Below, in pieces: positions 20,044 to 42,700 of a stretch of DNA of 64,000 nt. Source of the DNA: Pristiophorus japonicus (lineage: Eukaryota); NCBI RefSeq assembly GCF_044704955.1, contig NC_091977.1, positions 384,462,001 through 384,526,000 on the forward strand, in the 5' to 3' direction. The notes beneath the pieces were generated by a model. That model did no database searches. It saw only the letters and a program-made list of their open reading frames with translations, and was not told where the DNA came from. A program made the position numbers and the translations under genes. The first letter of the stretch is position 1. Each line of letters begins with the position of its first letter.

Positions 20044-21216
20044 TTTGGAACACTATTGTAGGAGCAAACATCAGCACAAGTATTGCAGTGATTGAAGGAG
20101 CAGGTCCATGACCATCTTCTCAGGGCAACTAGGGATGGGCAATAAAAGTGGCTTTAGCAACTTTGCCCACTGCTGAGGCCATCACAGACCCTGACAGCAA
20201 TGAAAGTATAGACTATTTTCCTGCTTAACAATGATGACTACAGTTCAAAAAGTAACCCATTGAATCAGAAGCACTTCGGAAAGCCTGACGAGGTTCTATG
20301 TAAATTAAAATTCAGCGGCCTAGAAACAGGCATTCACATAAAGGTGGCATAATGCCCACTTGAAACCCTCTTCCTGAAATTGGGCACATCGCCGGCTACG
20401 TTCAGGATAACCAGGTCTACATGCAGCACAACCAATGGCCCTGGAGTGCTCCTCACAGCTTCACTGTAGTCCTGAAGACTGTTGCCCATCCCAGTTTGGC
20501 CCCTTCCAGATTGTCTTGCCCCTTCCCGATCAGCCCCTACCTCCCTCCCACATGACAGCTCCATCCCTGACTCCCAATTGCTCATCTCTCTCACAATCAC
20601 CTCTGGCCCAACTTCATCATCGTGGAACTGGCGAGCTGTCTCTGGTTGCACAACTGGCGTCCACAATTCACCAGCAATATGCTGATGAGGCCCAAGGCCC
20701 AATTTAGGGTGAGCTTCAGGCCTCTGCCTTCTGCCGCACTTCCAGTATGCTGCATATTTGAGGCTTCAAAATGGGCCACGATGAATTTCCACACCTTTAT
20801 TTCTTAACTCAGAACATTGTCAACACATTTGATCACTATTGTCCATTATGCAATTTTCTTTTCTGGCATATTTCTAGGTGTTTTAAATGGAGTTTAATAA
20901 AAAAAATTACTTCATTCCTTTGAGTGAAGAGCATTTGTTTTTACTTATAGAAGAACACATGTGAAATGTGCTGCTATGCTGACTCCTTGTACTACATGAC
21001 GTAGTGCATTGTGTTCTTTATTGTGTACTGCTCCTAAGTGATAAACTTTTGGAAGGATTAGATCTGACGGCCCCCTGAGGGGTCTCTGGAAGACTTTCTT
21101 GTGCTCCTGTTGGTCACCTATTACTATGTGCTGCAGACCCAAATAATCATGCCTGTCCTCATCTGTGGAGGCTGTAGTCAACGCTCTTCAGGATCTGAAG
21201 TTCTACTGAATATCTG

Positions 21217-22638
21217 TTGATTCGACACCAGATGTCACACACTCAGATCACTGACATTTTGTCCCGCTATATTCTACTGACTGGTGCTGAGGAAAGGTTC
21301 CTGAAGTTCTTGCCAATAATCGGTTATACTGGGCAAGAAATAGCAGGAATAATACTGGCCTTTCTGGATGAGAAAGGGATCGACATACAAAATTGTCGCG
21401 GACAATCTTATGATAATGCTTCAACTATGAGTGCGAAATACATTGGTGTCCAAATTATCATCAAAGAGCAATGCCCATATGTGCCATTTATACCATGCAC
21501 AGTGCATTCACTCAACCTTATGGGGAAAAACAGTGTTGGATGCAGCCCAGTGATCATCAGATTTTTTGACATTGTACAAAAGTTGCACACTTTTACTCTT
21601 TGCATCGACGTATCGCTGGCAACTGCTTTATGAAAAACTAAAGCCTTTAGGGCTTTCTATCATCAAACAGCTTTCTGCTACTCGATGGTCAGCAAGGTAT
21701 GAAGCAGTGTCACCCTATGTGGAGTGTTGGAATCCCCGGCAACTGACGAGGAACAGAAAGTTGAATGCCGAAATGAAGCTCAGTTGATCCTTGACAAACT
21801 GGGTGAACTGCATTCAGCTATTCTCATTGTTATTTGGAACATAGTCTTGAAGCGCTTTCACCTGATCAATCTCTCGCTTCAAGAGACCGGCTTGAATCTG
21901 AATGTCATGGTGTCCTTACTCGAGTCCCTTGTCAATTTTGTCAAGACCCAGCAGACAGAGTTTGAGGACTTTGAAGACGTAGGGATTAAACTGTGTGGCC
22001 ACAATGAGTACAATTCAGCTCAGAGGCGTGTCCGGGTAAGCAATCGCCGCTATGACAACGGAGATGCTGAAAGCACTGTGCTGTCACCCAAGGAGAAATT
22101 CAAAACTGAAATGTTCCTTGTCATCATTGATCAATTAATCAGTACCTTGAAACACCGCCTTGAAGCATACAAGGAAACCAACTGTAAGTTTGGATTCCTG
22201 TCCAAGCTAGCCGCTCTCTCGATTCATGAGATCAAGCAAACCGCAACAAATCTTGCCCACTCCTATCCCAAAGATCTGGAACCTATGATTGAAAGTGAAT
22301 TAATCCAGTTTTCTATCTTGGTGGCATCCTCAACAGAGCTTCAAATCTCAATTTGTGTCAAACAAACTAAGTCAGCAGAGCAGAGAATGTGTCAATTCCG
22401 CCATACACACACCCCCACCCAAACCTCATCTAACATTGAAATAGCTCTTCGGATATATCTGTTAATGATGGTATCGAATTGCAGTGGTGAGCGGTCTTTC
22501 TCAAAACTAAAATGCCTCAAGGATGAGGTCAGGAACCGAATGGGACAAGATCGACTTAATAGTCTTTCAATCATGAGCATCGAGAGCGAAGTACTGAGAG
22601 GACTTGACTTCTCGAAAATCGTTGATGAGTTTAGCTGA
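21217..22638 (+). pseudogene. hAT-superfamily transposase remnant (ZMYM1/PRKRIR-like, C-terminal hAT dimerisation domain)
   Basis: CRGQSYDNASTM, PCTVHSLNL, LSATRWSAR, SNCSGERSFSKLK and MGQDRLNSLSIMSIE across three frameshifted ORFs. Confidence 0.9.
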
Positions 22639-23049
22639 CAAAAATCTAGGAAAGCCCAATGCAATGTTATACTTGTAGTTGCCTTTGTAGAGAAAATGAA
22701 ATCCAAATCTATTGCACTGTCTTGTTCTAAATTGTTGTCATTGTCGATTTAGTTTCAAAATGTAAGGATTTAAAAAAATTAAAGCCTTGTTGTTTACTGT
22801 TTATACAGGGTTTCATCAAGGTATCGATTTGATTGTTTGGAAACATAATAAAATATTAAATGAATGTCGTCATAGTATCAATGAGAACATAACCCGAGAT
22901 CTAGACCTGACCTGATCTTGACCTGATGCATACTCACTATAGCCTGTGACTTAGCTCACTAATATTATTTACTGCAGGATGTGAATGGGAGTAGGGGGCC
23001 CATGGCCGGGGTACTGCTCAGGGCCGGAGTCACCCTTAATCCGTCCCTT
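21217..23049 (+). mobile_element. hAT DNA transposon, 3' part
   Basis: Transposase remnant, AT-rich 3' UTR with AATAAA, and a TIR-like end CTTAATCCGTCCCT at ~23035-23049. Left TIR not found. Confidence 0.7.
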
Positions 23050-23354: not shown

Positions 23355-25311
23355 TTGAGCCTGCAACACCATTCAATAAGATCATGGCTGATCATTCCCT
23401 CAGTACCCCTTTCCTGCTTTCTCTCCATACCCCTGATCCCCTTAGCTGTAAGGGCCATATCTAAGTCACTCTTGAATATATCCAATAAACTGGCATCAAC
23501 AACTCTCTGCGGTAGGGAATTCCACAGGTTAACAAGTCTCTGAGTGAAGAAGTTTCTCCTCATCTCAGTCCTAAATGGCCTTCCTCTTATCCTAAGACTG
23601 TGTCCCCTGGTTCTGGACTTCCCCAACATCGGGAACAATCTACCCGCATCTAACCTGTCCCGTCCCGTCAGAATCTTGTATGTTTCTCTGAGATCCCCTC
23701 TCATTCTTCTAAACCCCACTTCTGATAAAAAGTGGCGTTACATTAGCTACCCTCCAGTCCATAGGAACTGATCCCAAGTCGATAGACTGTTGGAAAATGA
23801 TCACCAATGCATCCACTATTTCTTGGGCCATTTTCTTAAGTTGTCTTGGATGCAGACTATCAGGCGCCGGGGATTTATCGGCCTTCAATCCCATCAATTT
23901 CCTGAACACAATTTCCCGCCTAATAAGGATATCCTTCAGTTCCGCCTTCTCACTAGACCCTCGGTCCCCTAGTAGAAACATAGAAACATAGAAAATAGGT
24001 GCAGGAGTAGGCCATTCGGCCCTTCTAGCCTGCACCACCATTCAATGAGTTCATGGCTGAACATTCAACTTCAGTACCCCATTCCTGCTTTCTCGCCATA
24101 CCCCTTGATCCCCCTAGTAGTAAGGACCTCATCTAACTCCTTTTTGAATATATTTAGTGAATTGGCCTCAACAACTTTCTGTGGTAGAGAATTCCACAGG
24201 TTCACCACTCTCTGGGTGAAGAAGTTCCTCCGCATCTCGGTCCTAAATGGCTTACCCCTTATCCTTAGACTGTGACCTCTGGTTCTGGACTTCCCAACAT
24301 TGGGAACATTCTTCCTGCATCTAACCTGTCTAACCCCGTCAGAATTTTAAATGTTTCTATGAGGTCCCCTCTCATTCTTCTGAACTCCAGTGAATACAAG
24401 CCCAGTTGATCCAGTCTTTCTTGATAGGTCAGTCCCGCCATCCCGGGAATCAGTCTGGTGAACCTTCGCTGCACTCCCTCAATAGCAAGAATGTCCTTCC
24501 TCAGGTTAGGAGACCAAAACTGTACACAATACTCCAGGTGTGGCCTCACCAATGCCCTGTACAACTGTAGCAACACCTCCCTGCCCCTGTACTCAAATCC
24601 CCTTGCTATGAAGGCCAACATGCCATTTGCTTTCTTAACCGCCTGCTGCACCTGCATGCCAACCTTCAATGACTGATGTACCATGACACCCAGGTCTCTT
24701 TGCACCTCCCCTTTTCCTAATCTGTCACCATTCAGATAATAGTCTGTCTCTCTGTTTTTACCACCAAAGTGGATAACCTCACATTCACTTCCGGAAGGTT
24801 ATTTGTGTCTTCCTTCGTGAAGACAGAACCAAAGTATTTGTTCAATAGGTCTGCCATTTCTTTGTTACCCATTATAAATTCACCTGAATCCGACTGCAAG
24901 GGACCTACGTTTGTCTTCACTAATCTTTTTCTCTTCACATATCTATAGAAGCTTTTGCAGTCAGTTTTTATGTTCCTGGCAAGCTTCTTCTCGTACTCTT
25001 TTTCCCCCCTCTTAATTAAACCCTTTGTCCTCCTTTGCTGAATTCTAAATTTCTCCCAGTCCTCAGGTTTGTTGCTTTTTCTGGCCAATTTATATGCCTC
25101 TTCCTTGGATTTAAAAGTACCTTTAATTTCTCTTGTTAGCCACGGTTGAGCCACCTTCCCCGTTTTATTTTTACTCCAGACAGGGATGTACAATTGTTGA
25201 AGTTCATCCATGTAATCTTTAAATGTCTGCCATTGCCTATCCACCGTCAACCCTTTGGTTCTGTCTTCACGAAGGAAGGCACAAATAACCTTCCGGAAGT
25301 ACTAGGGGACC
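23355..25311 (-). mobile_element. Rearranged CR1 with a second CR1 (23973-24785) nested in it and an inverted duplication at its right end
   Basis: 3' end 23355-23712 is joined to mid-ORF2 23715-23972. TAGAAACA tail at 23973. Upstream ORF2 resumes at 24786-25251. 25252-25311 is inverted. Confidence 0.88.
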
Positions 25312-25449
25312 TTTCCCAGTGCCCCCCTTTTTTTTGTTTTTTTTTGATGGCACCAACACACAAATTATACAAGTGCCCCCTGGCTAAAAGGGAGGGGAGG
25401 CTCTAAAACCGCAAAATTAAACAAATTAAACTTTAGACAATCAAATCAA

Positions 25450-28400
25450 ATTAAAATCTAGTTGCCGGGGGTGATGATGCACTCCAGTCCCACCGCCGGC
25501 CACCTCTTGCGGAAGGCCGCGAGTGTACCGGTGGACACCACGTGCTCCATTTCCAGGGACACCCTGGCTCTGATGTAATTGCGGAAGAGAGGCAGGCAGT
25601 CAGGCTGAACGGCCCCCTCGACCGCCCGCTGCCTGGACTGGCTGATGGCGCCCTTGGCCATGCCCAGGAGCAGTCCTACGAGTAGGCTCTCCGACCTGCC
25701 CACTCCCCTTTGCACAGGGTACCCAAAGATCAGGAGTGTGGGACTGAAGTGCAACCAGAATTTGAGGAGCAGCCCCTTCAAATAATGGAAGAGGGGCTGC
25801 AATCTCGCACACTCCATAAAAACATGGAACACGGACTCTTCCAGACCACAGAAATTGCAGGATGGCTGGGAGTAGATGAACCGGCTTAAAAGCTTATGCA
25901 CGGGATTGCTCCATGCACCACCCTCCAGGCCAAGTCCCCAAGAGATCGGGGGAGGACTCCCATGTAGAGTGCACTCCAGTGGGGATTCCCGCCTCCTCCG
26001 GACCGCAAGATGGTGCGCCATGGCGTGTCCGGACAGCAGACGAGGATGGCAAGGTGGAGATTGTGCAAGAGCAGCCCGTACAGGAAACCCCTCCGCGCAG
26101 AACTGAAAGGCACGGAGGGGATTTCCACAAGGCGGCTCAAGTTGTGATGCGCCAGCTCCCGAGGGAGGTTTCGGGGCTTGGCACCAATGAGGAATTCCAT
26201 CCGGACGGGGGTCAGTTCAGACGGGATCTCCCCGCGTGCTTGAGCTTCCTCGACACACCTAACGGAGTCAGGGCCCAGTGCTGTTTTTAGCGCTGGGCCC
26301 TGGCATTGGCCGCGCGCCGGACATCGGCCCAGTTTAGACGCCATGGCAGCACAGCTGGCGCCATCCAACCCGTTCCTCCACCATTGAGCAGGTCCCTGAC
26401 CCTGGTCACCTCGCCAGCCACAGCCTTCTCGCCTGCATGCCACCTAAAACCGCGGTCGTGGAGGTACGGATTCCTGAGCAGCGGCTCCTGTAGGACAGCC
26501 GCCACTCCAGAAGGGGGAGAGCTGCACTTAGTGACAACTCTGTTCCAGACCCTGATGAGTTCCTGGTAAAAAACAGGCAGACCCCGCATGGTGGTCCTGA
26601 CACCCGCCAGGCTCACAAACAGGAGCTGAGTGACATAGAAAATAGGTGCAGGAGTAGGCCATTCGACCCTTCTAGCCTGCACCGAATATTGAGGTCATAA
26701 TTGAGGTTGTATTGCTGGTGGAAGAAATACATGCCACCTAGGATGGGGCTCAACATACAGGTATCTCTGCAAGGCCTGAAGACGGAAAGTCGCTAGCTGG
26801 GTGCTGACGCACAACTGACCGCCTTCCCTAAGCGGGAGACTCAAAACCGCAGCAGAGACCCAGTGCTTTCTGTTGTTCTAGAAGATGTCCACCAGCTTCT
26901 TCTGTATCTTGGCGACAAACGCAGAGGGAGGGGTCAAAGTGACCAGCCGGTACCACAGCATAGCGGCCACCAGCTGGTTTATAACTAGCGCTCGACCACT
27001 GTAGGACAGCACTCGGAGCAGTCCTGTCCAGCGCCCAAGGCGAGCGGCGACTTTGGCCTCCAGCTCCTGCCAGTTCGCCGGCCAGGCTTCCTCGTCGGGG
27101 CTAAGATAGACTCCCAGATAGAGGAGATGGGTCGTGCTCCAGGCAAAAGGCCTGAGCTCCTCCGGCAGGGAGTCCACCTGCCACTGACCCACCAGGAGTC
27201 TGGAACATTTCTCCCAGTTGATCCTGGCGGAGGATGCAGCTGAGTAAATCTCCTGGCACTCGTGCAGCCTCTGTAGGTCAATGGGATCCTCGACCATGAG
27301 GAGCACGTCATCGGCATTAGCAGAGAGGACAACCCCCAAGCCCGGCCCTTGCAGAACCAGTTCCGTCAAAGGCGCAGGAAAGGCTCCACGCATAAGGCAT
27401 ATAACTGGCCAGATATGGGGCATCCCTGGCGCACCCCTCTCCCAAAGCTAAGGGGCACCGTCAAAGACCCGTTAACCTTAATTAGACACTCCATGGCGGC
27501 ATACAAAAGTCGGATCCGTGCAACTAAGTGCATCCCGAACCCGAAAGCGCGCAGAATTCCAAACAGATACTCGTGATCCACCCTGTTGAATGCCTTCTCC
27601 TGGTCTAGGGAAAGGAAGGTGACCGACAGACCAGCCTCCTGGGAATGGTGGACCAGGTCCCAGACCAGATGGATGTTGTTGTGGAATGTCCGGCCCGGGA
27701 CCATGTAGCACTGGTCGGGGTGGATCATGTGGTCCAGCACGGCGCCAAGACGAGCAGACATCACCCTGGCAAAAATGTTGTAATCCGTGCTGAGTTCTTA
27801 AGTAGACGGCGATCGCCCTTCTTAGGCAGCAGGACGATGACTGCCCTGCACCAAGAGAGGGGCATCTCCCCGGTTACCAGACTTTCCCCCAGGACCCGTA
27901 CGTAGTCGCCCCCCAGGACGTCCCAGAATGCCCTGTGGAACTCCACGGTCAGCCCGTCCAGCACTGGGGACTTTCCCCTCGAAAGCTGGTCGAGGGCATC
28001 GGTCAGCTCCTCCAGGCTTAGCGGAGTGTCCAGATTTTCAGCGCACTCCGGGCCGACCTTCGGCAGGTCCTCCCACAAAACTCTACGCACTTCGTCGCTG
28101 GATGGATCCGGAGAGAACAGAGCCCCGTAATAGTCTCGGGCCCTGTTATTGGTGTCCTCCGGGTCCGAGATCAGGGATCCGTCGTCGGCCAACAACGTCA
28201 AGAGCTGCTTACGGACCGCCGGTCTTTTTTCCAACGAGTAGAAGAAGGGGGAGCCACGGTCCAGGTCCTGAAGGAACCAGATTTGTGACCTCACGAACGC
28301 GCCTCCGGACCCGACAAACTTCAGGTCCTTCAGCGTGGCCTTCTTCGCTTCGTACATCGTCCGCAGGGCCGGGTCCTCGATGACTTGACTGAGACGGGAT

Positions 28401-29238
28401 TCCAGATCGAGCACCTCCTTCTCCAGGAGTCCCACCCTGGCCTCTCGCCTCTTGGTCAACCCCTTCACGTACTCTTGGCAGAAGAGACGGACGTGAGCCT
28501 TGCCCACGTCCCACCATAACCTCAAGGAGGGGAAGCCCCACCTGCTTCCTTCTCCAGTCGGCCCAGAGCATGGCGCCGGCCGCATGGAGGCCGCCAGAAC
28601 GCAGGAGACGTACGCCCAGGATACGTAAAGGCAGTCGACTCTGGATCATCTGCTTCCAGGCCTCACCCAAGTAAAGGCGCGGGAGTCGGGATGGAGATTT
28701 CGCCAGACGTCCACCAAGTCAAATGACCTGACCAGGTCCCTCAACTTCTCCATCGCCGACATGCTCTGCGGGGCACCAGAGTGGTCCCTCGCCTCGAGGA
28801 TGCAGTTAAAATCCCCCCCGAGAACATTGCAGTCGCCGCCGTCGACGGAGCCAAGAAAGTGGACAATTCTTCGAAGAAGCGCACTTGCTGCAGGCCGGGC
28901 TGAGGGGCGTACATGTTCACTAAATGGAGCGGCTCGTCCCTCAGGTGAACCGTGACATGGAGCAAGTGGCCTGGCACAGGCTCCTTGACCCCCAAGATCT
29001 CCGGCTGAAAATGTGGTGTCAGCAAGATAGCCACCCCACAAGAAGTGGCAGTGAGGTGTCTCATGTGGACCTCTCCTTGCCATTCCAAGAGCCACGTGGA
29101 CTCATCTCCCGGAATGGTGTAGGTTTCTTGCAGGAAGCACACCGCATATTTCCCCGCCCGTAGGAGCGAAAAATTGTTAAATCTACGGCGTGCCTCTCTG
29201 CCGCTGTTGATGTTGAGGCTGGCTATGGTTATCTTCAT
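25450..29238 (-). pseudogene. Tx1 ORF2 (endonuclease-reverse transcriptase), multiple frameshifts
   Basis: MKITIASLNIN, FLQET, GGDFNC, LSLDQEKAFNRVDH, GVRQGCPISGQLY, NADD in place of YADD, CNFCGLEESVFHVFMEC and ECIITPGN. Confidence 0.92.
26633..26683 (-). mobile_element. Tiny CR1 3' tail inserted in Tx1 ORF2
   Basis: ACATAGAAAATAGGTGCAGGAGTAGGCCATTCG matches the young CR1 3' end. Absent from the homologous Tx1 segment at ~35785. Confidence 0.85.
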
Positions 29239-29259
29239 GACAAGAGCATAGTGCAACTT

Positions 29260-31377
29260 CTAACTTAAACTACAGTGGCGGGGGGGGACGGAGTCGTTTG
29301 ATGACCTCCACTCCCTCAGCAGCCCAGCAAGGAATGTTCTGAGCCGGCGCAGCTCAAGGGCTTCTAGTTTTGATAAGGTCCTGTCCACGTCCATGGTTTT
29401 GACGGCGGCGCAGACAGAACTGATGAGCAGCGCCGGCTTGGACCATTTGTCCAGAGCCAGATGGGCTCTATTGCGGCAACCCTGGCATTGCGCCAAAAAG
29501 TCCCGGAGTTCCTTGGCAGGAATGAGGGGGGACCCAGTGGCGGGTACGAGGAGATCCACCACCTCACTGGTGATGGACTCCACATCTTCTCCCGCGTCCT
29601 CCACCGAGTCCCCGTCCTCCTCCGGGAAGTTCATCACCAGCAGCCAGTCTGTCAACCACACGGGCTTTGGCAAACAGCCCGGCCGCACCATCTGGCCCTA
29701 TCTCTGTCACGATCCCACCCCCAGGATCATCGGCAGAGGAGTCCTCCCTGGACACCCCCTGGGATGCTGGGTCGGGAAGCAGCAGCGGAGGGAGGTCCCC
29801 CTCTGCCCCAGGCACCGGGGAGCATGGAGAGACTGGGCAGAAAAACAGCTCCAGGTCCTCCAAGTCCCCCGGCTCCATCATCAGGGAGGACGATTGGGGT
29901 TCCACACCCTCCCCGCTACCATCCACCGGCCTAGCGGGTGGGTGTTCATGAAGTACATCTTGTTCTTTTCGCACCAGGTCGAGCAGATCCCGAGGGATGT
30001 CAATAATTGGCTGGGAGGGTTTGGACTCGGCCTCATCGGCCCCGCCCGCCTCAGTCCCCGGGAGGCTCTACCCGGCAGCGGCATTTTCTTTTCGCGGCCC
30101 CGCGCCCCCCGCAAGTGGCAGTTCTTGTTCCCCATCCCCGGGAGGCACAGGCTGGGCAGCCTTGGATGTCTCGCCTTCCCGAGGGACAGGCTCCACCCAC
30201 CTTCGGTGCGCATTGGGAACGCTGGTGGGGGATGCGGGACTCGCGCTGGGCACCAACTCCTCCAAGAAGGGACCTTGGTCATCCTCCGCTTCCTTGGAGT
30301 GGTGCCTCCTTTTTTTACTGGAGGGACGCGGAGGCAGGGAGCTCTCCATGTCGGGTGGGGCTCCCGCCTCCACTCCCTCCTTCCGATTATCTTGCCCGCG
30401 CCCGAAGCTGACCACAAACTCCCTGCAGAGGCGGGTGTGGTCAGGGGATCGGGCCCAGGCTCAGAATGCAACGTGCTCACCGGCGATAGTGGGGAGGGTG
30501 AGCGCGTTGATTGGGCTGTGTGGCCCACTGAGGGGACTGTCCGGAGGGGTGTTTATTTGTTTTCTTCCGTGCCCTTGTTCCGCACGGATGCTCTCCCTCC
30601 CCCCGCGCCGGAGCCCGCGAAGACAAAGGCCTCCGACGATGCCCGCGCACCTACGGCTCCCGGCACACAGGCGGTACAAGGGAGAGGGGTGGCAGTGGCA
30701 CCAGCCTTGGCCGCTTTGGCTGTTTTAGCGACCTTGGAGGCGGGGCAGTTCTTTCGGACGTGTCCCACCTCCTCACAGGCATGGCACCGCACGCCGTCCG
30801 ATGTCCAGAAGACGTGGTAGGCAGTCCTCTCGTGGACCACATTGAATGTACCCTCTGTTACCTCCTCCTGGGCCAGCTGAATGAAAAGCTGGCGCCGGAA
30901 GGAGAACACATGACGGAGGTTGGCCTCCTTGAAGCCGAGCGGTATCGGCGTTATCTCTGACCTCACCTCCCCCAGTTGATGTAGGTGGGGGAGGAGGAGC
31001 TCCCCGGGAACAAAGGGCGGGACGTTCGAGATGACGACGCTCTGCGCGGTGGCCTCGAGAGGATCCACCGGCAGGAATGTCCCGCCCACCGTGAGCCCCT
31101 TACTGAGGGCCAGGGACACTGCCCGCTCCGACCCCAGGAAGAACACAGCCTTCCCGTACATGTTGGAGGCGGCGACAATGGCCGAGGGGCCGACTACCCC
31201 AGCCATTGCCCTCACGCACTCCTCGATGGTCGTGTTGGGGTGAGTGTAGCTCTTGACCCTGTTCTTTTTAGTAATGAGTCTGAAAGGTGGCAGGGCAGCA
31301 GGAGCCGCCGTGGCCTTTGCTGCCACGCACGCATAAGTTTGTGCTGGCCCCGCCATCGGCAAAGATGGACTCACCAT
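29260..31377 (-). pseudogene. Tx1 ORF1 (gag-like, ZCCHC3-like N-terminus with zinc knuckle), frameshifted
   Basis: ORF 30553-31377 contains IVAASNMYGKAVFFL, VVISNVPPF and CHACEEVGHVRKNC. Low-complexity continuation in other frames down to 29260. Confidence 0.85.
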
Positions 31378-31566
31378 ATCGGGGTCCCTTTAAGGGCTCA
31401 CTCACCCCAAAGTGACAGGCCTTAAAGGTCTTGATTGGCCTCGTTGATGAGCAGAGGGAGTTCTTAATGAGGCATACCTCTCCCCAACTTTTGACAATTG
31501 TGGAGGGGTCCTTTTCCCTTTGGTCAGTCGTTGTTTGTTTTATAAAATATATTTTAAAAGAGGCTC

Positions 31567-31605
31567 TCAGAGAGAGAGAGAGAGGAGAGACAGAGAGAGA
31601 GAGGG
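31567..31605. repeat. (GA)n microsatellite in Tx1 5' UTR
   Basis: Visible imperfect GA run. Confidence 0.85.
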
Positions 31606-32197
31606 AGGGGGGACGGTGGAAAAGAGAGAGGCTGTGGTATCAGGCAATTCTCACAGCATTGGGTGGGTGCTTGCAGGGGGTACACTCCCCGGATCACAAA
31701 CAAAGTCTTTATATTCTTCTCGCAGGGGGACAAGATATCTTCATCTGGGATGGCTGGACCCGCCCAGGCACAGTCCTCCAAATGATGTTAAATAATTAAT
31801 GGGAAAGAGATTACACCCAGCTAGCTCCAGCCACCTGGGCCAGGCAATGGGGGAGGAGTGCTTCCAGTGGTGTGTGGGGCCCAGTTGTTCGCACGAACCC
31901 CACACACTTGCACGCACACCCCCCCCCAATGTTCTTAATAAATCTCCTTTTCTCCCAACACCGATTAAGCTAAGCAAAGTCTTTTTTGAGGAGTGCACTA
32001 AAATAAAACCACTTGTTGATTTTGACAATGGCTCTCCCTCCTTCTACACAGCCGGTGAGTAAGTTGAATGGCAGCTGTTCCTTCCCCCTCTCTCAAACTC
32101 TACAGGAGTATTGGCAGCTCTCCCTCCTCTCCCCTCTCCAGGCCGTTTTTCTTCCTCCTCCTCTCACAGGTTCCTGGGTTCACTCCCACTCTGCACC

Positions 32198-35100
32198 AGT
32201 TCAACTATTTTAGTGGTGCATTTTAAACAATTGCCCCCTGAAAGGGGGGTCACACTCCAAAACAAAGTTTTTCCCCGTGCCTCTTTTTTGGGCGGGGGTT
32301 TAGGGCACTAAAAACAGAAATTATACAAGTGCCCCTGGCTAAAAGGGGGACATTATCAGTTCAACTATTTTAGTTGTGCATTTTAAACAAATGCTCCCTG
32401 CAAGGGGGGTCACACTCCAAAATATATTCTTTCCCAGTGCCACTTTTTTTTTTTTTTTTGAGGGCACCAACACACACATTATACAAGTGCCCCCTGGCTA
32501 AAAGGCGGGGGGGCACTAAAACCGGCAAATTAAACAAATTAAACTTTAGACAATAAAATCAAATTAAAATTTGGTTGCCGGGGGTGATGATGCACTCCAG
32601 TCCCTCCAGCGCCCACCTCTCGCGGAAGGCTGCGAGCGTATTGGTGGACACCCCGTGCTCCATCTCCAGGGACACCCTGACCCGGATGTAACCGCAGAAG
32701 AGAGACAGGCAGTCTGGCTGAACGGCCCCCTCGACCGCCCGCTGCCTGGACCGGCTGATGGCTCCCTTGGCCATGCCCAGGAGCAGTCCTACGAGGAGGA
32801 CTTCCGACCTGCTCACTCCCCTCCGCACAGGGTGCCCAAAGATCAGGAGTGTGGGACTGAAGTGCAACCAGAATTTGAGGAGCAGCCCCTTCAAATAATG
32901 GAATAGGGGCTGCAACCTCGCACATCCTACAATTCTTTTTGTTGTGAACGAAATAAAAATTAAATCAAGTGCCCCCTGATTAAAAGGGGGGTCACACTCC
33001 AAAAAACTTTTCAATGCCCCCTTATTTTTTTTGAGGGCATAACAACACAAATTAAACAAGTGCCGCCTAGCTAAAAGTGGTGGGGGTGGGGGGGTCACTA
33101 AAACTGACAAACATAGACAAATTAAACTTTGGACATGGTTCAAATTAATATTTAGTTGCCGGGGGTGATGATGCACTCCAGTCCCTCCGGAATCCACATC
33201 TCGCAGTGTACCAATGGACACCGCCTGTCAACAGCTCTATAACTATTTTAAATTGTGATCAGTAATCAAGTGCCCCCTGATTAAAAGGAGGGGGGACACA
33301 TCAAACATTTTCAAACAACTGCCCCCTTGTTTTATTTGAGGGCACAAAAACACAAATTATACAAGTGCCCCCTGGCTAAAAGGGGAGGGGGCACTAAAAC
33401 CGCAATTAAACAAATTAAACTTTAAACAATAATAATCAAATTAAAATTTGGTTGCCGGAGGTGATGATGCACTCCAATCCCTCCGGCCCTCACCTCTTGC
33501 GGAAGGCCGCGAGCATACCGGTCAACACCGTGTGCTCCATCTCCAGGGACTCCCTGGCTCGAGCAGGTTCCTGACCCTGGTCACCTCGCCAGCCACAGCC
33601 CTCTCGTCCGCCTGCCACCTAAAACCGCAGTCATGAAGGTACGGATTACTGAGCAACGGCTCCTGCAGGACAGCCGCCACTCCAGACAGAGGAGAGTTAC
33701 ACTTGGTGGCAACTCTGTTCCAGACACTGATGAGATCCTGGTAAAAGACAGGCAGACCCCGCATGGTGGTCCTGACACCCCCCCAGGCTCACAAACAGCA
33801 GCTGCGTGTTGTAATTGAGGCTGTACTGCTGGCGGAAGAAATGCATCTCTAGCGCACGCCATCTAGGATGGGGCTCGACATAGAGGTATCTCTGCAGGGT
33901 CTGAAGATGGAAAGTTGCATGCTGGATGCTGACGCACACCAACGCCAGACCGTCCTCCCTAAGTGGGAGAATCAAAACCGCAGCAGAGACCCAGTGTTTC
34001 CTGTTGTTCCAGAAGAAGTCCACCAGTTTCTTCGGTATCTTGGCGACAAACACAGGGGGAGGGGTCAAAGTGACTCAACAGCTCTACAATTATTTTGTGT
34101 TGTATCAGTAATCAAGTGCCCCCTGATTAAAGGGAGGGGGGGACATACTCCAAAAAACCTTTCAAGTGCCCCCTTATCTTTTTTTATTTTTATTTTTTAA
34201 GGGTACTAAAAACGCAAATTATACAAGTGCCCCCCTGGCTAAAAGGGATGGGGGGGGCACTAAAACCGACAAACATAGACAAATTAAACTTTGGACATGT
34301 TTCAAATAAAAAATTGGTTGTCGGGGGTGATGATGTACTCCAGTCTCTCCGGCGTCCACATCTCGCAGAAGGCCGCGAGCGTACCGGTGGACACCGTGTG
34401 TCAACAGCTCTACAACTATTTTTGTAGAAAAACAGAAAATCAAGTGCCCCCTGATTAAAGGGGTGGACACACCAAACATTTTCAAATAAATGACCCCATT
34501 TTTTTTTTGGTGTTTTTTTTAGGGTACTAAAAACACAAATTATACAAGTGCCCCCTGGCTAAGAGGAGGGGTACTAAAACCATCAAATTAAACAAATTAA
34601 CATTTAGGCATAAAATCAAATTAAAATTTGGTTGTCAGGGGTGATGATTCACACCAGTCCTTCCGATGCCCACCTCTCGCGGAAGGCCGCGAGTGTGTCG
34701 GTGGACACCGCATGCTCCATCTCCAGGGACACGCTGGCTCGGATGTAACCGCGGAAGAGAGGCAGGCAGTCGGGCTGAATGACCCCCTCGACCGCCCGCT
34801 GCCTGGACCGGCTGATGGTCCCCTTGCCTATGCCGAGGAGCAGTCCTACCTACCAGGAGGCCTTCCGACCTGCCCGCTCCCCTCCGCACAAGGTGCCCAA
34901 AGATCAGGAGTGTGGGACTGAAGTACAACCAGAATTTGAGGAGCAGCCCTTCAAATATTGGAATAGGAGCTGCAACCTCGCACATTCCATAAAAATGTGG
35001 AACATGGAGTACTCCAGACCGCAGAAATTGCAGGCGGCCTGGGAGCCCGTGAACCGACCTAAAAACTTATTGCACGGGACTGCTCTGTGCACCACCCTCT

Positions 35101-37848
35101 AGGCCAAGTCCCCATTAAATAGTGGGAGGACTCCCGCGTAGAGAGCACTCCATTGCGGACTTCCGCCTCCTCCGGACGGCAAGATGGTGCGCCATGGCTT
35201 GTCCGGACGGCAAACAAGGATGGCAAGGTGCAGAGTGTGCCCGCACAGGAAACCCCTCCGCGCAGAACTGAAAGGCATGGAGGGGATTTCCCCAAGGAGG
35301 CTCAAGTTGTGAGGTGCCGGTTTGCAAGAGGGTTTCGGGGCTTGGCGCCGATGAGAAATTCTGTCCGGACAGGCATCAGTTCAGACGGGATCTCCCCACA
35401 TGCTTGAGCCTCTTCGACACACCTAACAGAGTCAGGGCCCAGCGTTGTTTTTAGCGACTCGATGGCATTGGCTGCTAGCCGAACGCGGCCCAGTTTAGTC
35501 ACAGTGCCAGCAAGTCTGGCGCCATGCAACCCGCTCCTCCGCCATCGAGCAGGTCCCTGATCCTTGTCACCTCACCAGCCACAGCCCTCTCATCCACCTA
35601 CAACCTAAAACCGCGGTCGTGGAGGTACGGATTCCTGAGCAGCAGCTCCTGCACTACAGCCGCCTCTCCAGATGGGGGAGAGCTGCGCTTGGTGGCGACT
35701 CTGTTCCAGACCCTGATGAGTTCCTGGTAAAAGACAGGCAGACCCCGTATGGTGGTCCTGACACCCCCCCAGGCTCACAAACAGGAGCTGCGTGTCGTAA
35801 TTGAGGCTGTACTGCTGGCGGAAGAAATACATCGCCAGCGCACGCCACCTAGGAGGGGGCTCGACATAGAGGTATCTCTGCAGGGTCTGAAGATGGAAAG
35901 TTGCATGCTGGGTGCTGACACACACCAACGCCTGACTGCCCCCCCTAAGCGGGAGACTCAAAACCGCAGCAAAGACCCAGTGCTTCCTGCTGTTCCAGAA
36001 GAAGTCCACCAGCTTCTTCGGTATCATGGCGACAAACGCAGGGGGAGGGGTCAAAGTGACTCAACAGCTCTACAATTATTTTGTGTTGTATCAGTAATCA
36101 AGTGCCCCCTGATTAAAGGGAGGGGGGGACATACTCCAAAAAACTTTTCAAGTACCCCGTATTTTTTTCTTGAGGGCACTAAAAACACAAATTATACAAC
36201 TGCCCCCTTAGCTAAAAGGAGAAGGGGGCACAAAAACCGACAAGCATAGACAAATTAAACTTTGGACATGGTTCAAATTAAAATTTGGTTGCCGGGGGTG
36301 ATGATGTACTCCAGTCCCTCTGGCGTCCACATCTCGCAGAAGGCCGCGAGTGTACCGGTGGACACCGCATGTCAACAGCTCTACAACCATTTTATAGAAA
36401 AACAGTTAAACAATTAAATCAAGTGCCCCTCTTATGGTGGGGGGACACTCCAAACACTTTCAATCAAGTGCCCCCTTGTTTTTTGTTTGTTTTTTTTTGC
36501 TGGGAAGGTTTTGAGGGCACAAAAAACACAAATTATAAGAGTGCCTCCTGGATAAAAGGGGAGGGGACACACCAAAGACTTTTCAAGTGCCCCCTTTTTT
36601 TTTCTAGGGCAGTAAAAACACAAATTATACAAGTGCCCCCTGGCTAAAAGGGCGGGGCGCACTAAAACTGGCAATTAAACAAATTAAACTTTACACAATA
36701 ATAATCAAATTAAAATGTGGTTGCCAGGGGTGATGATGTACTCCAGTCCCTCCGGTGTCCACAGCTCGCAGAAGGCCACGAGCGTACCGGTGGACACCGC
36801 CTGTCAACAGCTCCACAACTCTTTTGATTGGAAACAGAAATAAACATTAGTTCAAGTGCCCCCCGATCTGGGGGACACTCCAAACACTTATCTTTATATT
36901 GGTTTTTTTGTATTTTTTGTGTTTTTTTTTGTTGTTTTCTTGTGGATTTTTTTGGGCCCTAAAACTGTAAATTTATAAGTGCCCCCTATAACAGGGGAGG
37001 GGGACACTAAAACCGGCAGTTAAAACAAATTAAACTTTAAAACATACTTCAAATTAAAATTTGGTTGCCGGGGGTAACGATGCACTCCAGTCCCTCCGGC
37101 GCCCATCTCTCGCGGAAGGCCGCGAGCCTAACGGTGGACACCGCGTGTCAACAGCTCCACAACTCTTTTGGGGGGGGGAACAAAATAAACGTTAGATCAA
37201 GTGCCCCCCGATCTGGGGGACACTCCAGACACTTAACTGTCCCTTTTTTTAAAAAATGTTTTTTGTTTCTTTTTTTTGTTTTTTTCTGGGTTTTTTTGTG
37301 ATTTTTTTGGGGGGGGCATTAAAACCATATATTTTACAAGTGCCCCCTATAAAAGGGGAAGGGCACACTAAAAATCCGGCAATTAAAGCAAATTAAACTT
37401 TAAAACATATAAAATCAAATTAAAATTTGGTTGCCGGGGGTAACAATGCACTCCAGTCCCTCCAGCGCCCACCTCTCGTGGAAGGCCGCGAGCGTACCTG
37501 TGGACACCGGTGTCAAACAGCTCCACAACTCTTTTTGGGGGAGACACATTAGATCGAGTGCCCCCCGATCTGGGGGAAACTCCAGACACTTTTAACTGCC
37601 CTCTTTTATTTGTGGGGTTTTTTTGGTGATTTTTTGGGGCATTAAAATCATATAATTTACAAGTGCCCCCTATAAAAGTGGAGGGGGACACTAAAACCCG
37701 GCAATTAAAATAAATTAAACTTTAAAACATAAAATCAAATTAAAATTTGGTTGCCGGGGGTGATGATGCACTCCAGTCCCTCCGGCGCCCACCTCTCGCG
37801 GAAGGCCGCAAGCGTACCGGTGGACACCGCGTGTCAACAGCTCCACAA
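32198..37848 (-). repeat. Head-to-tail array of 11 5'-truncated Tx1 3' ends separated by a recurring junction motif
   Basis: Units begin on the plus strand at ~32198, 32356, 32925, 33228, 34075, 34401, 36061, 36372, 36804, 37148 and 37513. Most carry the ORF2 C-terminus plus the 3' UTR. TCAACAGCTCYAYAA occurs at 9 junctions. Confidence 0.92.
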
Positions 37849-38742
37849 ACCTGTGAGCATGCTCATAGGTGCATATTATAGGTGATGGCCATGCTAGGTG
37901 CAATAGTAGGTCTGCCAGAGAGCTTCTTATCAGTGTCAAGGAGCATGGAGAAATCCAGCTCCATTATTGCATGGGGCTTTGCGCAGAGCTTGGAGGCCAT
38001 GATTTCCAAGAGGGAAGTGATGGGCTGACTCCATGAGAGACCGTGTAGACCCAGCCATGATGCTGCGTGTGATGGGCGATGTCGCAGCTTCCATTGCAGC
38101 ACAGGCGGAAGTGACCCAATGTGTAAGTGCTGCGATGGAAGCTCAGACTGCTACCATCGATGCTGGGTTTATGAATGTAGAAAGGGGTATGCAGGGTCTC
38201 ACAGCACTCGAGAAATCTGTCCCCCAACAGATGGCTAGGAATGCTGAGGTGCCGCTCCGGGGGAGTAGCAGTGGATCTGTGGAGCAAGAGCCTGCTGTCC
38301 TCTCTCAGGATGATGGCATGCCTACTTCCACCAGTGCCACTCCGCGAGTGCCCTTGCTGCTGCCTGTCATCCAGCCTGTCCAGGCTGCTGCCGCCCACGT
38401 TGAGGTGGTGCAGTTTACAACTGGGCTTTCTAGGCCCAGAGCTGCTTGACGTCATCCTGCAAGGCCATCTGCAGTGTCCCTCAATGAAGGTCAGCACCCT
38501 TCCGCTAGCCATGCCGCAGCCAATGGGGGAATAATTCGTAGGAGCACTTGAGTAGAAAAAGGAACACGAAAGACAGACACGAAGGGAATGCACAAGGGTG
38601 ATTCATTGACGTTGTTGTTTTGATTTGGATTTAATACATTTATAAATTATGTTTGTTTTGTGGTTGGTCTCATTTCAGCTTTGTGCCCAGGAGGATACTG
38701 CAATGTTCCATGACAGAAGGATTGTAAGATGACAGGATGATT

Positions 38743-41524
38743 AGGGCTGGGAAATCAACATCCAGGGGTATTCAACATTCAGGAAGGATAGAATAAAAGG
38801 AAAAGGAGGTGGGGTAGCATTGCTGGTTAAAGAGGAGATTAATGCAATAGTTAGGAAAGACATTAGCTTGGATGATGTGGAATCTATATGGGTAGAGCTG
38901 CAGAACACCAAAGGGCAAAAAACGTTAGTGGGAGTTGTGTACAGACCTCCAAACAGTAGTAGTGATGTTGGGGAGGGCATCAAACAGGAAATTAGGAGTG
39001 CATGCAATAAAGGTGCAGCAGTTATAATGGGTGACTATAATATGCACATAGATTGGGCTAGCCAAACTGGAAGCAATACGGTAGAGGAGGATTTCCTGGA
39101 GTGCATAAGGGATGGTTTTCTAGACCAATATGTCGAGGAACCAACTAGGGGGGAGGCCATCTTAGACTGGGTGTTGTGTAATGAGAGAGGATTAATTACC
39201 AATCTCATTGTGCGAGGCCCCTTGGGGAAGAGTGACCATAATATGGTGGAATTTTGCATTAGGATGGAGAATGAAACAGTTAATTCAGAAACCATGGTCC
39301 AGAACTTAAAGAAGGGTAACTTTGAAGGTATGAGGCGTGAATTGGCTAAGATAGATTGGCGAATGATACTTAAGGGGTTGACTGTGGATGGGCAATGGCA
39401 GACATTTAGAGACCGCATGGATGAATTACAACAATTGTACATTCCTGTCTGGCGTAAAAATAAAAAAGGGAAGGTGGCTCAACCGTGGTTATCTAGGGAA
39501 ATCAGGGATAGTATTAAAGCCAATGAAGTGGCATACAAATTGGCCAGAAATAGCAGCGAACCTGGGGACTGGGAGAAATTTAGAACTCAGCAGAGGAGGA
39601 CAAAGGGTTTGATTAGGGCAGGGAAAATGGAGTACGAGAAGAAGCTTGCAGGGAACATTAAGGCGGATTGCAAAAGTTTCTATAGGTATGTAAAGAGAAA
39701 AAGGTTAGTAAAGACAAACGTAGGTCCCCTGCAGTCAGAATCAGGGGAAGTCATAACGGGGAACAAAGAAATGGCAGACCAATTGAACAAGTACTTTGGT
39801 TCAGTATTCACTAGAGGACACAAACAACCTTCCGGATATAAAAGGGGTCAGAGGGTCTAGTAAGGAAGAGGAACTGAGGGAAATCCTTATTAGTTGGGAA
39901 ATTATGTTGGGGAAATTGATGGGATTGAAGGCCGATAAATCCCCAGTGCCTGATGGACTGCATTCCAGAGTACTTAAGGAGGTGGCCTTGGAAATAGCGG
40001 ATGCATTGACAGTCATTTTCCAACATTCCATTGACTCTGGATCAGTTACTATGGAGTGGAGGATAGCCAATGTAACCCCACTTTTTAAAAAAGGAGAGAG
40101 AGAGAAAGCAGGGAATTATAGACCGGTCAGCCTGACCTCAGTAGTGGGTAAAATGATGGAATCAATTATTAAGGATGTCATAGCAGCGCATTTGGAAAAT
40201 GGTGACACGATAGGTCCAAGTCAGCATGGATTTGTGAAAGGGAAATCATGCTTGACAAATCTTCTGGAATTTTTTGAGGATGTTTCCAGTAAAGTGGACA
40301 AAGGAGAACCAGTTGATGTGGTATATTTGGACTTTCAGAAGGCTTTCGACAAGGTCCCACACAGGAGATTAATGTGCAAAGTTAGAGCACATGGGATTGG
40401 GGTAGTGTGCTGATGTGGATTGAGAACTGGTTGTCAGACAGGAAGCAAAGAGTAGGAGTAAATGGGTACTTTTCAGAATGGCAGGCAGTGACTAGTGGGG
40501 TACCGCAGGGTTCTGTGCTGGGGCCCCAGCTGTTTACATTGTACATTAATGATTTAGATGAGGGGATTAAATGTAGTATCTCCAAATTTGCGGATGACAC
40601 TAAGTTGGGTGGCAGTGTGAGCTGCTAGGAGGATGCTATGAGGTTGCAGAGTGACTTGGATAGGTTAGGTGAGTGGGCAAATGCGTGGCAGATGAAGTAT
40701 AATGTGGATAAATGTGAGGTTATCCACTTTGGTGGTAAAAAGAGAGAGACAGACTATTATCTGAATGGTGACAGATTAGGAAAAGGGGAGGTGCAACGAG
40801 ACCTGGGTGTCATGGTACATCAGTCACTGAAGGTTGGCATGCAGGTACAGCAGGCGGTTAAGAAAGCAAATGGCATGTTGGCCTTCATAGCGAGGGGATT
40901 TGAGTACAGGGGCAGGGAGGTGTTGCTACAGTTGTACAGGGCCTTGGTGAGGCCACACCTGGAGTATTGTGTACAGTTTTGGTCTCCTAACTTGAGGAAG
41001 GACATTCTTGCTATTGAGGGAGTGCAGCGAAGGTTCACCAGACTGATTCCCGGGATGGTGGGACTGACCTATCAAGAAAGATTGGATCAACTGGGCTTGT
41101 ATTCACTGGAGTTCAGAAGAGTGAGAGGGGACCTCATAGAAACATTTAAAATTCTGACGGGTTTGGACAGGTTGGATGCAGGAAGAATGTTCCCAATGTT
41201 GGGGAAGTCCAGAACCAGGGGTCACAGTCTAAGGATAAGGGGTAAGCCATTTAGGACCGAGATGAGGAGAAACTTCTTCACCCAGAGAGTGGTGGACCGG
41301 TGGAATTCTCTACCACAGAAAATAGTTGAGGCCAATTCACTAAATATATTCAAAAGGGAGTTAGATGAAGTCCTTACTACTCGGGGGATCAAGGGGTATG
41401 GCAAGAAAGCAGGAATGGGGTACTGAAGTTTCATGTTCAGCCATGAACTCATTGAATGGCGGTGCAGGCTAGAAGGGCTGAATGGCCTGCTCCTACACCT
41501 ATTTTCTATGTTTCTATGTTTCTA
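38743..41524 (+). mobile_element. CR1 LINE, 2.8 kb, truncated in the endonuclease domain; ORF2 disrupted by frameshifts and a stop
   Basis: GVVYRPP, GDYN, SDHN and RT motifs, with a TTTCTATG tail. Near identical to 1-2111. Confidence 0.97.
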
Positions 41525-41559
41525 AGTGATGACCAACAGGGGTTTTTGGTTTTTCATTC

Positions 41560-41633
41560 ATTGGAATTGGAGTCTAATAAAATTCTCACAGACAGCCGGT
41601 CCAGAACGGGAATCTACTGCCTGCCTCCTCCCT

Positions 41634-41665
<32 letters not shown>

Positions 41666-42700
41666 CTCCTCCTGAGGTGGTCCCAGAACCCGTGGTGGCA
41701 AGAGATGCGCCCACATGATGGCCAAGTTTTGGAACATGCAGAAGACCACCATGAAATGGAACACCTGCTTCAGCATGTCCTGGAGGGTTCCCCTCGAGTG
41801 GGCAAGTCAGTGGAACCAGTGATTGAGTAACCCAATAGTCTGCTTGATGAGGTTCCACTCGGCAGCATGGCTCTCATCATATGATTGCTGGCCACAAGTA
41901 CAGGGATTGCAGAGGAGAGTCACTAGCCAGGTGCAGAGTGGATAGCTCTTGTCTCCGAGTAATCCTCTGGCTTAACGTGGTTGCTGGAAGATTGCTGGCA
42001 CACTGGACTGGAGTAGGATGAAGGCATCATGACTGCTGCCAGGATACCGGGTATTCACCACCATGCAACTGCACATTAAGAGAGTGGTAGCCATTGCAGT
42101 TGTGGTACATCTCAGGATTGACATGTGCCACCCACAAAGCCACGTGTGTGAAGTCAATGACGCCCTGCACCATGGGGAAGCCCGATATCCTGGCAAAGCC
42201 AAATGTGCACTCATCCTGCTTCTCCCTGTTCAGAGAGAAGACAATTAAATCTCTTCTCCTGGTGTACAGAGTCTTTGTGAACTCCCGGATGTAGGATAGA
42301 TGGTGAATTGGGAGATATTAGCTATGTTTCCTACTCCTGACTGTACGGATCCAGTGGTGAAAAAATTGAGGGTCACGGTGACCTTGGGGCCCACTGGCAG
42401 CGCATCTTCACCCTGCTCTGAGGCTGCAGGTCTGGTTGCAGGAGGTGGCAGAGTTATGTGGCCAGCTCCTTGGTGAAGCGGAGCCTCCTAATACACTGCT
42501 CCTAGCTTAGGTGCAGGTAGGAGAAGTGCTCTCTGAAGAACTGAGGGGGGTAAGGACTCCTGTTGAGAACCTTCCTGACCCTCCACCTCCTCCCTCTTTG
42601 TGCTACTTGTCCTCTTCTTTGCTGCCTCTACTTCACCCCCCTGCCATACTCGAGCGCGAGGAGGACTGCAAGTACAACCCCCATGACTGGGAGCAAGTGT
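41560..42700 (-). pseudogene. HARBI1-like transposase remnant
   Basis: RYPGSSHDAFIL, LGDKSYP, VVFCMFQNLAIM and a poly-E tail. Confidence 0.85.

What the first reader, a model, noticed from the sequence alone, without database searches (positions are those of the whole stretch)
25312..37848. Site-specific, self-extending Tx1 retrotransposon array with a repeated 15-bp junction motif
Seen: one near full-length Tx1 element and 11 shorter 3' ends, all on the minus strand and head-to-tail. TCAACAGCTCYAYAA (sense TTRTRGAGCTGTTGA) lies at 33228, 34075, 34401, 36061, 36372, 36804, 37148, 37513 (one extra A) and 37834. Each internal copy abuts the element's A-rich 3' terminus (sense AAAAGAG/AAAATAR). 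The last copy instead runs into non-Tx1 flank (ACCTGTGAGC). Known: Tx1-clade elements are often sequence-specific (Xenopus Tx1L/Tx2L in DNA transposons, Keno in U2 snRNA, Mutsu in 5S rDNA), and TPRT regenerates the target as a TSD. Inference: the motif is a target that is regenerated at each insertion, so the locus works as a landing pad that accumulates successive 3' ends. The target is not one I recognise.
Basis: partly seen in the sequence, partly recalled or inferred. Interest (0 to 1): 0.85.

Follow-up and report, generated by a model that had tools for sequence, protein, structure and literature searches.

The report
Retrotransposon pile-up inside a DNA transposon
A jumping gene inserted several times at one short site inside another, dead jumping gene in what looks like a shark-like genome, and the stack then grew further by copying of its own pieces, which is a new example of a known habit rather than a new kind of system.

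Summary
In detail: one near full-length L1/Tx1-type element, 11 shorter 3' ends, and the 15-mer at all nine stated positions. The outer motif translates STAPQ, in register with S/R/N-SAPQ of the three closest shark-type proteins (59 of 200,000 shuffles score as well). The preceding residues (LCTS) appear at 32189-32200, so the 11 short units probably split one Harbinger exon; this left half rests mainly on one relative. The motif is therefore a target-site duplication, not the element's terminus. It is not 11 fresh insertions: 7 of 11 units share one 5' breakpoint and 2 share another, four share dead-copy amino-acid changes, and several are mosaics. Best model: about 4-6 targeted insertions from several subfamilies, then secondary copying inside the array. 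No age gradient was found. Precedents exist: Tx1-9_AMi targets Harbinger, SINEU-3 tandems sandwich a TSD, and double insertion seeds Drosophila TE tandems. Still open: one breakpoint is shared across four tail classes, which may mean new cDNAs inherit the resident unit's 5' junction.

The parts
25311..32166 (-). FL: near full-length, decayed L1/Tx1-type non-LTR retrotransposon. The 3' tail is missing and the 5' end is approximate (at or left of 32166).
29264..31377 (-). FL ORF1 region: open from ATG 31377 to 30553, broken beyond; CCHC zinc knuckle
   Evidence: Pfam zf-CCHC E 0.0024, below the curated cut-off; Atlas look-alikes are CCHC proteins at 0.92-0.94
25446..29238 (-). FL ORF2 (APE endonuclease, RT, C-terminal zf-RVT), broken by several frameshifts and stops
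   Evidence: tblastn of intact turtle relative P0040 over residues 4-1299 in 6 HSPs; endonuclease matches human L1 EN, E 6e-8; weak Pfam hits
26633..26694 (.). About 62-nt CR1 3'-end fragment inserted in FL ORF2
   Evidence: gap against U3/U5; CR1 identity judged by eye against the CR1 3' end at 23996-24040
32167..32204 (+). Probable left half of the Harbinger target: Q-V-P-G ... L-C-T-S-S, ending in the first 4 nt (TCAA) of the motif
   Evidence: 339 of 50,000 shuffles and 32 of 18,282 window 18-mers score as well; frameshift-aware test 0 of 200 with P0100 but 39, 64 and 52 of 200 with three other relatives
32205..32356 (-). U0, 152-nt 3'-UTR-only unit (tail class D); flanked by an 8-nt direct repeat (32197-32204 and 32357-32364)
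32365..32924 (-). U1, 560 nt, tail D, own junction J3 with only 6 nt of the motif (32927-32932)
32933..33227 (-). U2, junction J1, A-type dead-copy changes, tail E
33228..33242 (+). Motif copy (TSD), T-type with one further change
33243..34074 (-). U3, junction J2, internal deletion of about 816 nt at a CGA microhomology, tail F
34075..34089 (+). Motif copy, T-type; inside a 106-bp perfect repeat (34053-34158) shared with the 36061 junction
34090..34400 (-). U4, J1, A-type, tail F
34401..34415 (+). Motif copy, T-type
34416..36060 (-). U5, 1645 nt, J2, tail G; sister to U3 only over the first 355 shared columns
36061..36075 (+). Motif copy, T-type
36076..36371 (-). U6, J1, A-type, tail F (paralogue of U4)
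36372..36386 (+). Motif copy, T-type
36387..36803 (-). U7, mosaic: J1 and A-type 5' part, B-type UTR with an internal duplication, tail G
36804..36818 (+). Motif copy, C-type
36819..37147 (-). U8, J1, subfamily C UTR
37148..37162 (+). Motif copy, C-type
37163..37512 (-). U9, J1, subfamily C UTR
37513..37528 (+). Motif copy, C-type with one extra A
37529..37833 (-). U10, J1, subfamily C UTR, outermost unit
37834..37848 (+). Outer motif copy = Harbinger partner-gene codons S-T-A-P-Q; predicted first-strand nick on the + strand after 37848
   Evidence: the nick position is inferred from where the tails abut
37849..38602 (+). Right half of the target: decayed C-terminal part of a Harbinger Myb/SANT partner gene
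   Evidence: 64-69% identity to P0096, which carries Myb_DNA-bind_5; match to P0094 up to 38602
41627..42058 (-). HARBI1-like (DDE_Tnp_4) transposase remnant, convergent with the partner gene and separated from it by a CR1 (38745-41528); probably the same Harbinger copy
   Evidence: tblastn of P0101, E 1e-21; P0101 carries DDE_Tnp_4; same layout as the paralogues at 11.9-15.9 kb and 56.7-59.3 kb

Best explanation
A target-preferring Tx1-type LINE family nicks the + strand of a Harbinger partner-gene exon after ...CTCYACAA and inserts antisense to that gene by target-primed reverse transcription, duplicating 15 bp. This happened about 4-6 times at this locus, from at least two and perhaps five subfamily RNAs (distinct junctions FL, J1, J2, J3, possibly U0; distinct subfamily C). 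The resulting direct repeats then recombined (unequal exchange, deletion, conversion), multiplying existing junctions and shuffling 5' and 3' parts to give 11 short units. SHOWN: motif = Harbinger coding sequence; common 3' insertion point; shared breakpoints; shared dead-copy mutations; mosaicism. INFERRED: that the element's own endonuclease recognises this sequence, the number and order of insertions, and that the copying was DNA-level recombination.
For: Motif reads STAPQ against RSAPQ/NSAPQ/SSAPQ at the expected register; 59 of 200,000 shuffles and 7 of 18,280 window 21-mers score as well. Frameshift-aware alignment of P0100 runs through the motif, with 0 of 150 motif shuffles as good. 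The same 15-mer precedes two unrelated breakpoints, and five tail classes abut its first base. Subfamily C differs from FL, U1, U3 and U6 more in the UTR than in ORF2 (e.g. U10/U1 22 of 92 vs 6 of 86, p 0.002), unlike within-class pairs (p 0.15-0.64). For copying: R>M and A>T are shared by U2/U4/U6/U7, and R>C and C>Y by U4/U6/U7, all 4 non-synonymous. U3+U4 matches U5+U6 at 86% over 1040 bp. U3 and U5 private changes are neutral-like, 37 non-synonymous to 12 synonymous against 365:148 sites. The same two-step route is published for Drosophila TEs (PMC5932611).
Against: One locus only; no solitary copy in the window, so genome-wide specificity is untested. The Harbinger match depends on relatives about 65% identical: with P0096 the frameshift-aware test gave 8 and 30 of 150, and local alignments of P0096, P0106 and P0095 stopped short of the motif. 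The left half was significant with 1 of 4 relatives. J1 occurs with four tail classes and J2 with two, so pure DNA recombination needs extra insert-then-lose-junction steps. FL's downstream flank is deleted. FL, U5 and U3 private changes are similar (56, 46, 37), so the duplicates are about as old as the insertions.
Confidence: 0.6

Rival explanations
1. Junction inheritance: same target and TPRT, but many units are new retrotranspositions whose cDNA anneals to the sense strand of a resident unit and copies its 5' part and motif (sometimes a whole neighbouring unit). Each new unit then has a new tail and an old 5' junction, and the array templates its own unit length.
For: J1 is combined with four tail classes and J2 with two. 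C units carry J1 but lack the A-type changes that start 33 nt in. U7 is A-type 5' plus B-type 3'. U3/U5 are sisters only near J2: 23 of 355 vs 62 of 385 mismatches, 3 of 1000 permutations. The complete U5 lies outside the deleted U3, the order this model predicts. cDNA annealing to homologous upstream DNA is the main 5' junction for full-length R2-delivered transgenes (PMC11371274 passages).
Against: Unequal exchange and conversion give the same mosaics. The alternation of J1 and J2 cannot be produced by outer-end growth alone. U4/U6 and U8/U9 share tails and derived changes like plain duplicates. No age gradient: type-C odd-one-out counts are 27, 21 and 19 of 300.
Confidence: 0.2
2. One reading: all 12 units are independent de novo insertions, with J1 and J2 as recurrent truncation hot spots (for example through microhomology).
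For: Common 3' insertion point. The Tx1 sequence just 5' of J1 (TGGAG) resembles part of the C-type motif. The tails are diverse.
Against: Base-identical junctions in 7 and 2 units; shared non-synonymous dead-copy changes in a nested pattern; a repeated dimer with a 106-bp perfect core. The microhomology is weaker for T-type motifs, which also carry J1.
Confidence: 0.05
3. RNA-level duplication: read-through transcripts of tandem copies here or at another Harbinger locus, or a short non-autonomous J1-starting family, carried motif plus junction into the site.
For: Explains identical junctions and loss of coding constraint in A-type units. Every unit ends in a complete hairpin-bearing 3' UTR.
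Against: No promoter-like head was found: no tRNA and no credible Rfam match. The outermost J1 joins this locus's own Harbinger flank.
Confidence: 0.1
4. The motif is part of the element's own 3' terminus, or the array is one insertion tandemly duplicated.
For: Every internal copy abuts a tail; the units are 73-90% identical over a 210-column core.
Against: The motif is in register with the Harbinger protein at the outer flank, where no tail is present. Three junctions lack most of it. There are four or more distinct 5' junctions and a distinct subfamily C UTR.
Confidence: 0.05

Closest known systems
Tx1-9_AMi (alligator; Kojima 2015, PMC4494074; read abstract, parts 1 and 3 of 5 and passages; supplements not available)
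   Same: Tx1-clade LINE with preference for Harbinger DNA transposons
   Different: [quoted passage not shown] Sequence relationship not tested (no reference available; its target alignment is in an unseen supplement).
Tx1-Mar / SINEU-3 in Mariner-N4_AMi (same paper)
   Same: Target is another transposon; 16-nt TSD; tandem insertions that sandwich a TSD, interpreted as sequential insertion; two preferred regions in the host element
   Different: Mariner host, snRNA-derived heads, and no long arrays with shared 5' breakpoints in the passages read
Xenopus Tx1L in Tx1D (PMC4494074 introduction; PMC1950540 passages)
   Same: Sequence-specific APE endonuclease LINE inserting into a DNA transposon
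   Different: Non-autonomous piggyBac host; the target downstream of its nick is given as AGTT, whereas here the outer flank reads ACCT
TE tandems from double insertion, and the R1 array, in Drosophila (McGurk and Barbash 2018, PMC5932611; read abstract and sections 7, 10, 14)
   Same: Site preference makes tail-to-internal tandems; P-element dimer junctions hold the TSD; dimers can expand; unequal exchange may give higher-order repeats
   Different: Different elements; here several subfamilies share one 5' breakpoint within a 5.6-kb stack
R2-based PRINT 5' 'anneal' junctions (PMC11371274; passages only)
   Same: The cDNA 3' end anneals to homologous upstream DNA to form the 5' junction (the mechanism of the novel reading)
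   Different: Engineered homology to rDNA, restriction-like endonuclease, not annealing to a resident copy

Membership tests
L1/Tx1-type non-LTR retrotransposon | ORF2 with N-terminal APE endonuclease and RT, L1-related | tested here: met
L1/Tx1-type non-LTR retrotransposon | Separate ORF1 with a CCHC zinc knuckle (recalled as typical of Tx1 rather than mammalian L1) | tested here: met
   zf-CCHC at residues 201-216, below cut-off; Atlas CCHC clusters
Tx1 clade | RT phylogeny groups with named Tx1 families (Tx1L, Keno, Kibi, Tx1-9_AMi) | not testable with these tools
   No hit among 93 homologues was named Tx1, nor in the Atlas listing; no Repbase references on hand. The label Tx1 rests on architecture and recall.
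Target-specific Tx1 family | More than 20% of genomic copies flanked by the same target (criterion in PMC4494074) | not testable with these tools
   Only one locus; no other copy in the window; no eukaryotic genome collection
Target-specific Tx1 family | Independent insertions share one 3' junction position | tested here: met
   Five tail classes and at least three 5' junction types meet at the same base; the two innermost junctions are 11 nt away
Target-site duplication | The repeat is host sequence and flanks insertions on both sides | tested here: inconclusive
   Host origin met; the innermost copy keeps only 4 of 15 nt and the left flank is supported by 1 of 4 relatives
Harbinger (PIF/Harbinger) host element | Myb/SANT partner gene plus DDE_Tnp_4 transposase | tested here: met
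   remnants only
Harbinger (PIF/Harbinger) host element | Terminal inverted repeats and 3-bp TSD | not tested
   The ends of the host copy were not mapped
Polarised, CRISPR-like array | Units get younger towards one end | tested here: not met
   U10 has 1 of 101 differences from the majority in the ORF2 end, but over 300 columns U8/U9/U10 have 27/21/19 odd changes; FL, U5 and U3 are similar
SINEU-like element | snRNA- or tRNA-derived head | tested here: not met

The most novel reading that the evidence does not exclude
The array templates its own growth: the endonuclease re-nicks the regenerated Harbinger site, and the new cDNA closes the insertion by annealing to the resident unit instead of forming a new 5' junction. 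Successive subfamilies are thus trimmed to an inherited unit boundary, and repeated nicking also drives conversion centred on the motif (the 106-bp perfect tract). This would be a natural homology-directed second-end joining route that turns a target-specific LINE into regular satellite-like units.
Probability: 0.2. Interest if true: 0.7.

Novelty: new member of a known kind. Interest (0 to 1): 0.4.

Why it matters
It names a concrete 15-bp target, in a Harbinger partner-gene exon, for a probable cartilaginous-fish Tx1-type LINE. That gives a directly assayable substrate for an APE endonuclease and another case of a LINE sheltering inside a DNA transposon. Ten literature searches did not list a description of this target; Repbase entries and unseen supplements could hold one. 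The array is a compact vertebrate record of the route from double insertion to higher-order tandem repeat. If junction inheritance is real, it bears on the poorly understood second half of LINE integration.

Tried and rejected
RNA-gene target or head: no tRNA; one implausible sub-threshold Rfam hit, bacterial CrcZ. Nucleotide comparison with three paralogous Harbinger copies in the window (60-72% identical) did not extend over the motif; they belong to other subfamilies, lack the motif and carry no Tx1 insertion, which has little power either way. 'U10 is youngest' was suggested and dropped. The 3' UTR hairpin (9 pairs, 11 units) has no compensatory change, only a C-specific G-U variant, so it does not show selection. 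The synonymous excess on FL against U3/U5 is only p 0.08. A resemblance of the Tx1 sequence next to J1 to the Harbinger left flank appears with P0100 only (score 34 vs 43) and was not relied on. An intron reading of the sequence left of 32167 found no nucleotide support. Christensen 2000 is not held and Kojima 2015 supplements are unavailable. Metagenome and viral collections stayed unchecked; the prokaryotic genome collection was not searched, being irrelevant to a vertebrate locus.
Full report
OBSERVATION. The 15-mer is present at all nine stated positions, eight exact and one with an extra A. It occurs nowhere else in 64 kb at up to 2 mismatches; the chance mean is 0.58 and 0 of 100 shuffles reach 9. 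Self-comparison and alignment resolve one long element (FL, from 25311) and 11 shorter units, U0-U10, all on the minus strand. FL has an ORF1 with a CCHC knuckle and a broken ORF2 that matches an intact 1306-aa turtle protein end to end and human L1 endonuclease. The name Tx1 rests on this architecture and on recall; no named Tx1 reference was available for a tree. Named relatives of the flank and of the element include shark and ray proteins, so the host is probably a cartilaginous fish (inference).

THE TARGET. The flank beyond 37848 is a decayed Harbinger partner gene. It is 64-69% identical to P0096, which has a Myb/SANT domain, and a DDE_Tnp_4 transposase remnant lies convergent at 41627-42058 behind a CR1 insertion. 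The same layout recurs in other copies in the window. The three closest relatives read R/N/S-S-A-P-Q, then five residues, then L-D-G. The outer motif translates S-T-A-P-Q, followed by 13 nt and L-I-G-A. In an anchored test, 59 of 200,000 motif shuffles and 7 of 18,280 window 21-mers score as well. A frameshift-aware alignment passes through the motif for P0100 (0 of 150 motif shuffles, 1 of 150 wider shuffles). It is weak for P0096 (8 and 30 of 150), and local alignments of P0096, P0106 and P0095 stop before the motif. On the other side of the 11 short units, 32167-32204 reads Q-V-P-G ... L-C-T-S-S, the residues that precede SAPQ in P0100. For this, 339 of 50,000 shuffles score as well, and the ten control junctions score -1.3 to 5.3 against 11.3. 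In the frameshift-aware version it was significant for P0100 (0 of 200) but not for three other relatives (39, 64 and 52 of 200); joining the halves needs one extra codon. I conclude that the motif is Harbinger sequence (strong) and that U0-U10 split one exon (moderate). FL then sits either at a second site at least 35 nt further on, or at the same nick with a long duplication; its 3' flank is deleted, so this cannot be decided.

INDEPENDENT INSERTIONS. The full motif precedes two unrelated breakpoints, J1 and J2. U1 has a third junction with 6 nt of the motif, and the two innermost junctions keep only TCAA, either through an 11-nt deletion between CAAC repeats or through a second nick site. 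Five tail classes, assigned by eye from the last 35 nt, end at these positions. U8-U10 form a clade (100/100) whose UTR is much more distant from the other units than its ORF2 end (p 0.001-0.049 in 5 of 5 cross-class pairs, 0.15-0.64 in 5 of 5 within-class pairs), so they come from a separate subfamily. This gives about 4-6 retrotransposition events at one site (inference). A 15-nt J1 or J2 duplication cannot be copied from U1's 6-nt junction. So U1 went in later on the inner side, or its junction was trimmed afterwards; growth was probably not strictly from one end.

SECONDARY COPYING. Seven of 11 units start at the same base and two at another. U2, U4, U6 and U7 share two non-synonymous changes and U4, U6 and U7 two more, at residues that are R, A and C in the turtle protein for three of the four. 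These are marks of one dead ancestor copied in steps. U3+U4 repeats as U5+U6 (86% over 1040 bp), and U3/U5 private changes are neutral-like. U7 joins an A-type 5' part to a B-type UTR. U3 and U5 are sisters only over the first 355 shared columns (3 of 1000 permutations). A 106-bp perfect tract spans the two J2 motifs within about 90% identity (24 of 20,000 permutations, post hoc). There is no age gradient: FL, U5 and U3 have 56, 46 and 37 private sites, with about ten of FL's at the junction, and U8-U10 have 27, 21 and 19. The motif switches once along the array, T-type in the inner five copies and C-type (the Pro codon of the relatives) in the outer four; the direction of this change is unresolved.

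MECHANISM. Best supported (0.6): targeted TPRT several times, then recombination among the direct repeats. The main rival (0.2) is that new cDNAs anneal to a resident unit and inherit its junction. It explains J1 with four tails and J2 with two in fewer steps, and fits the position of complete U5 outside deleted U3, but one locus cannot separate it from unequal exchange. RNA-level copying (0.1), all-independent insertion (0.05) and element-terminus or single-origin models (0.05) are weaker.

COMPARISON. Kojima 2015 (PMC4494074; abstract, parts 1 and 3 of 5, passages; no supplements) reports Tx1-9_AMi preferring Harbinger 5' regions, Tx1-Mar preferring a Mariner, and tandem SINEU-3 copies sandwiching a 16-nt TSD by sequential insertion. 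McGurk and Barbash 2018 (PMC5932611; abstract and three sections) show double insertion producing TE tandems with the TSD at the junction, and later expansion. PMC1950540, PMC11371274 and PMC3747384 were seen as passages only. Ten searches listed no paper on this target; two of them, Tx1 with Harbinger and shark, and Tx1 with HARBI1 and Myb, returned none. The unseen supplement of PMC4494074 holds the Tx1-9_AMi target and could overlap.

VERDICT. Real, and now largely explained: a new member of a known kind, with a newly identified probable target and one open mechanistic oddity. Interest 0.4; the most novel reading has probability 0.2 and interest 0.7 if true.

Noticed in passing
window 34053-34158 and 36039-36144: 106-bp perfect repeat spanning the two J2 motif copies inside otherwise about 90% identical DNA; possible nick-induced gene conversion or an assembly effect.
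   Followed up: partly
window 11863-15916, 53842-55288, 56656-59285, also 41624-42552, 49396-50594, 52798-53405: At least five further decayed Harbinger pieces (Myb partner gene and HARBI1-like transposase, convergent); the window is unusually rich in them.
   Followed up: partly
window 24786-24835 and 25257-25302: Inverted repeat of about 46 bp bounding an older CR1 piece next to FL's truncated 3' end, beside a younger CR1 (23973-24785) nested in it; may mark the rearrangement that removed FL's tail and flank.
   Followed up: no
3' UTR of every unit, e.g. window 37580-37700: The UTR is built of repeated AGTGCCCC...GGGGGCACT hairpin modules, with extra modules in U7; a candidate ORF2p recognition signal; no covariation seen in the one hairpin folded.
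   Followed up: partly
window 32159-32172 (minus) and 37847-37856 (plus): The 10-mer AACCTGTGAG occurs in opposite orientations at the two ends of the short-unit stack; probably chance.
   Followed up: no
window 21200-22640: Decayed hAT transposase with a C-terminal dimerisation domain.
   Followed up: no
window 46700-47700 and 19855-20043: G-rich low-complexity tandem block and a 32-bp minisatellite.
   Followed up: no
window 33560: U3's internal deletion of about 816 nt joins at a CGA microhomology; either a DNA deletion or an RT template jump.
   Followed up: partly
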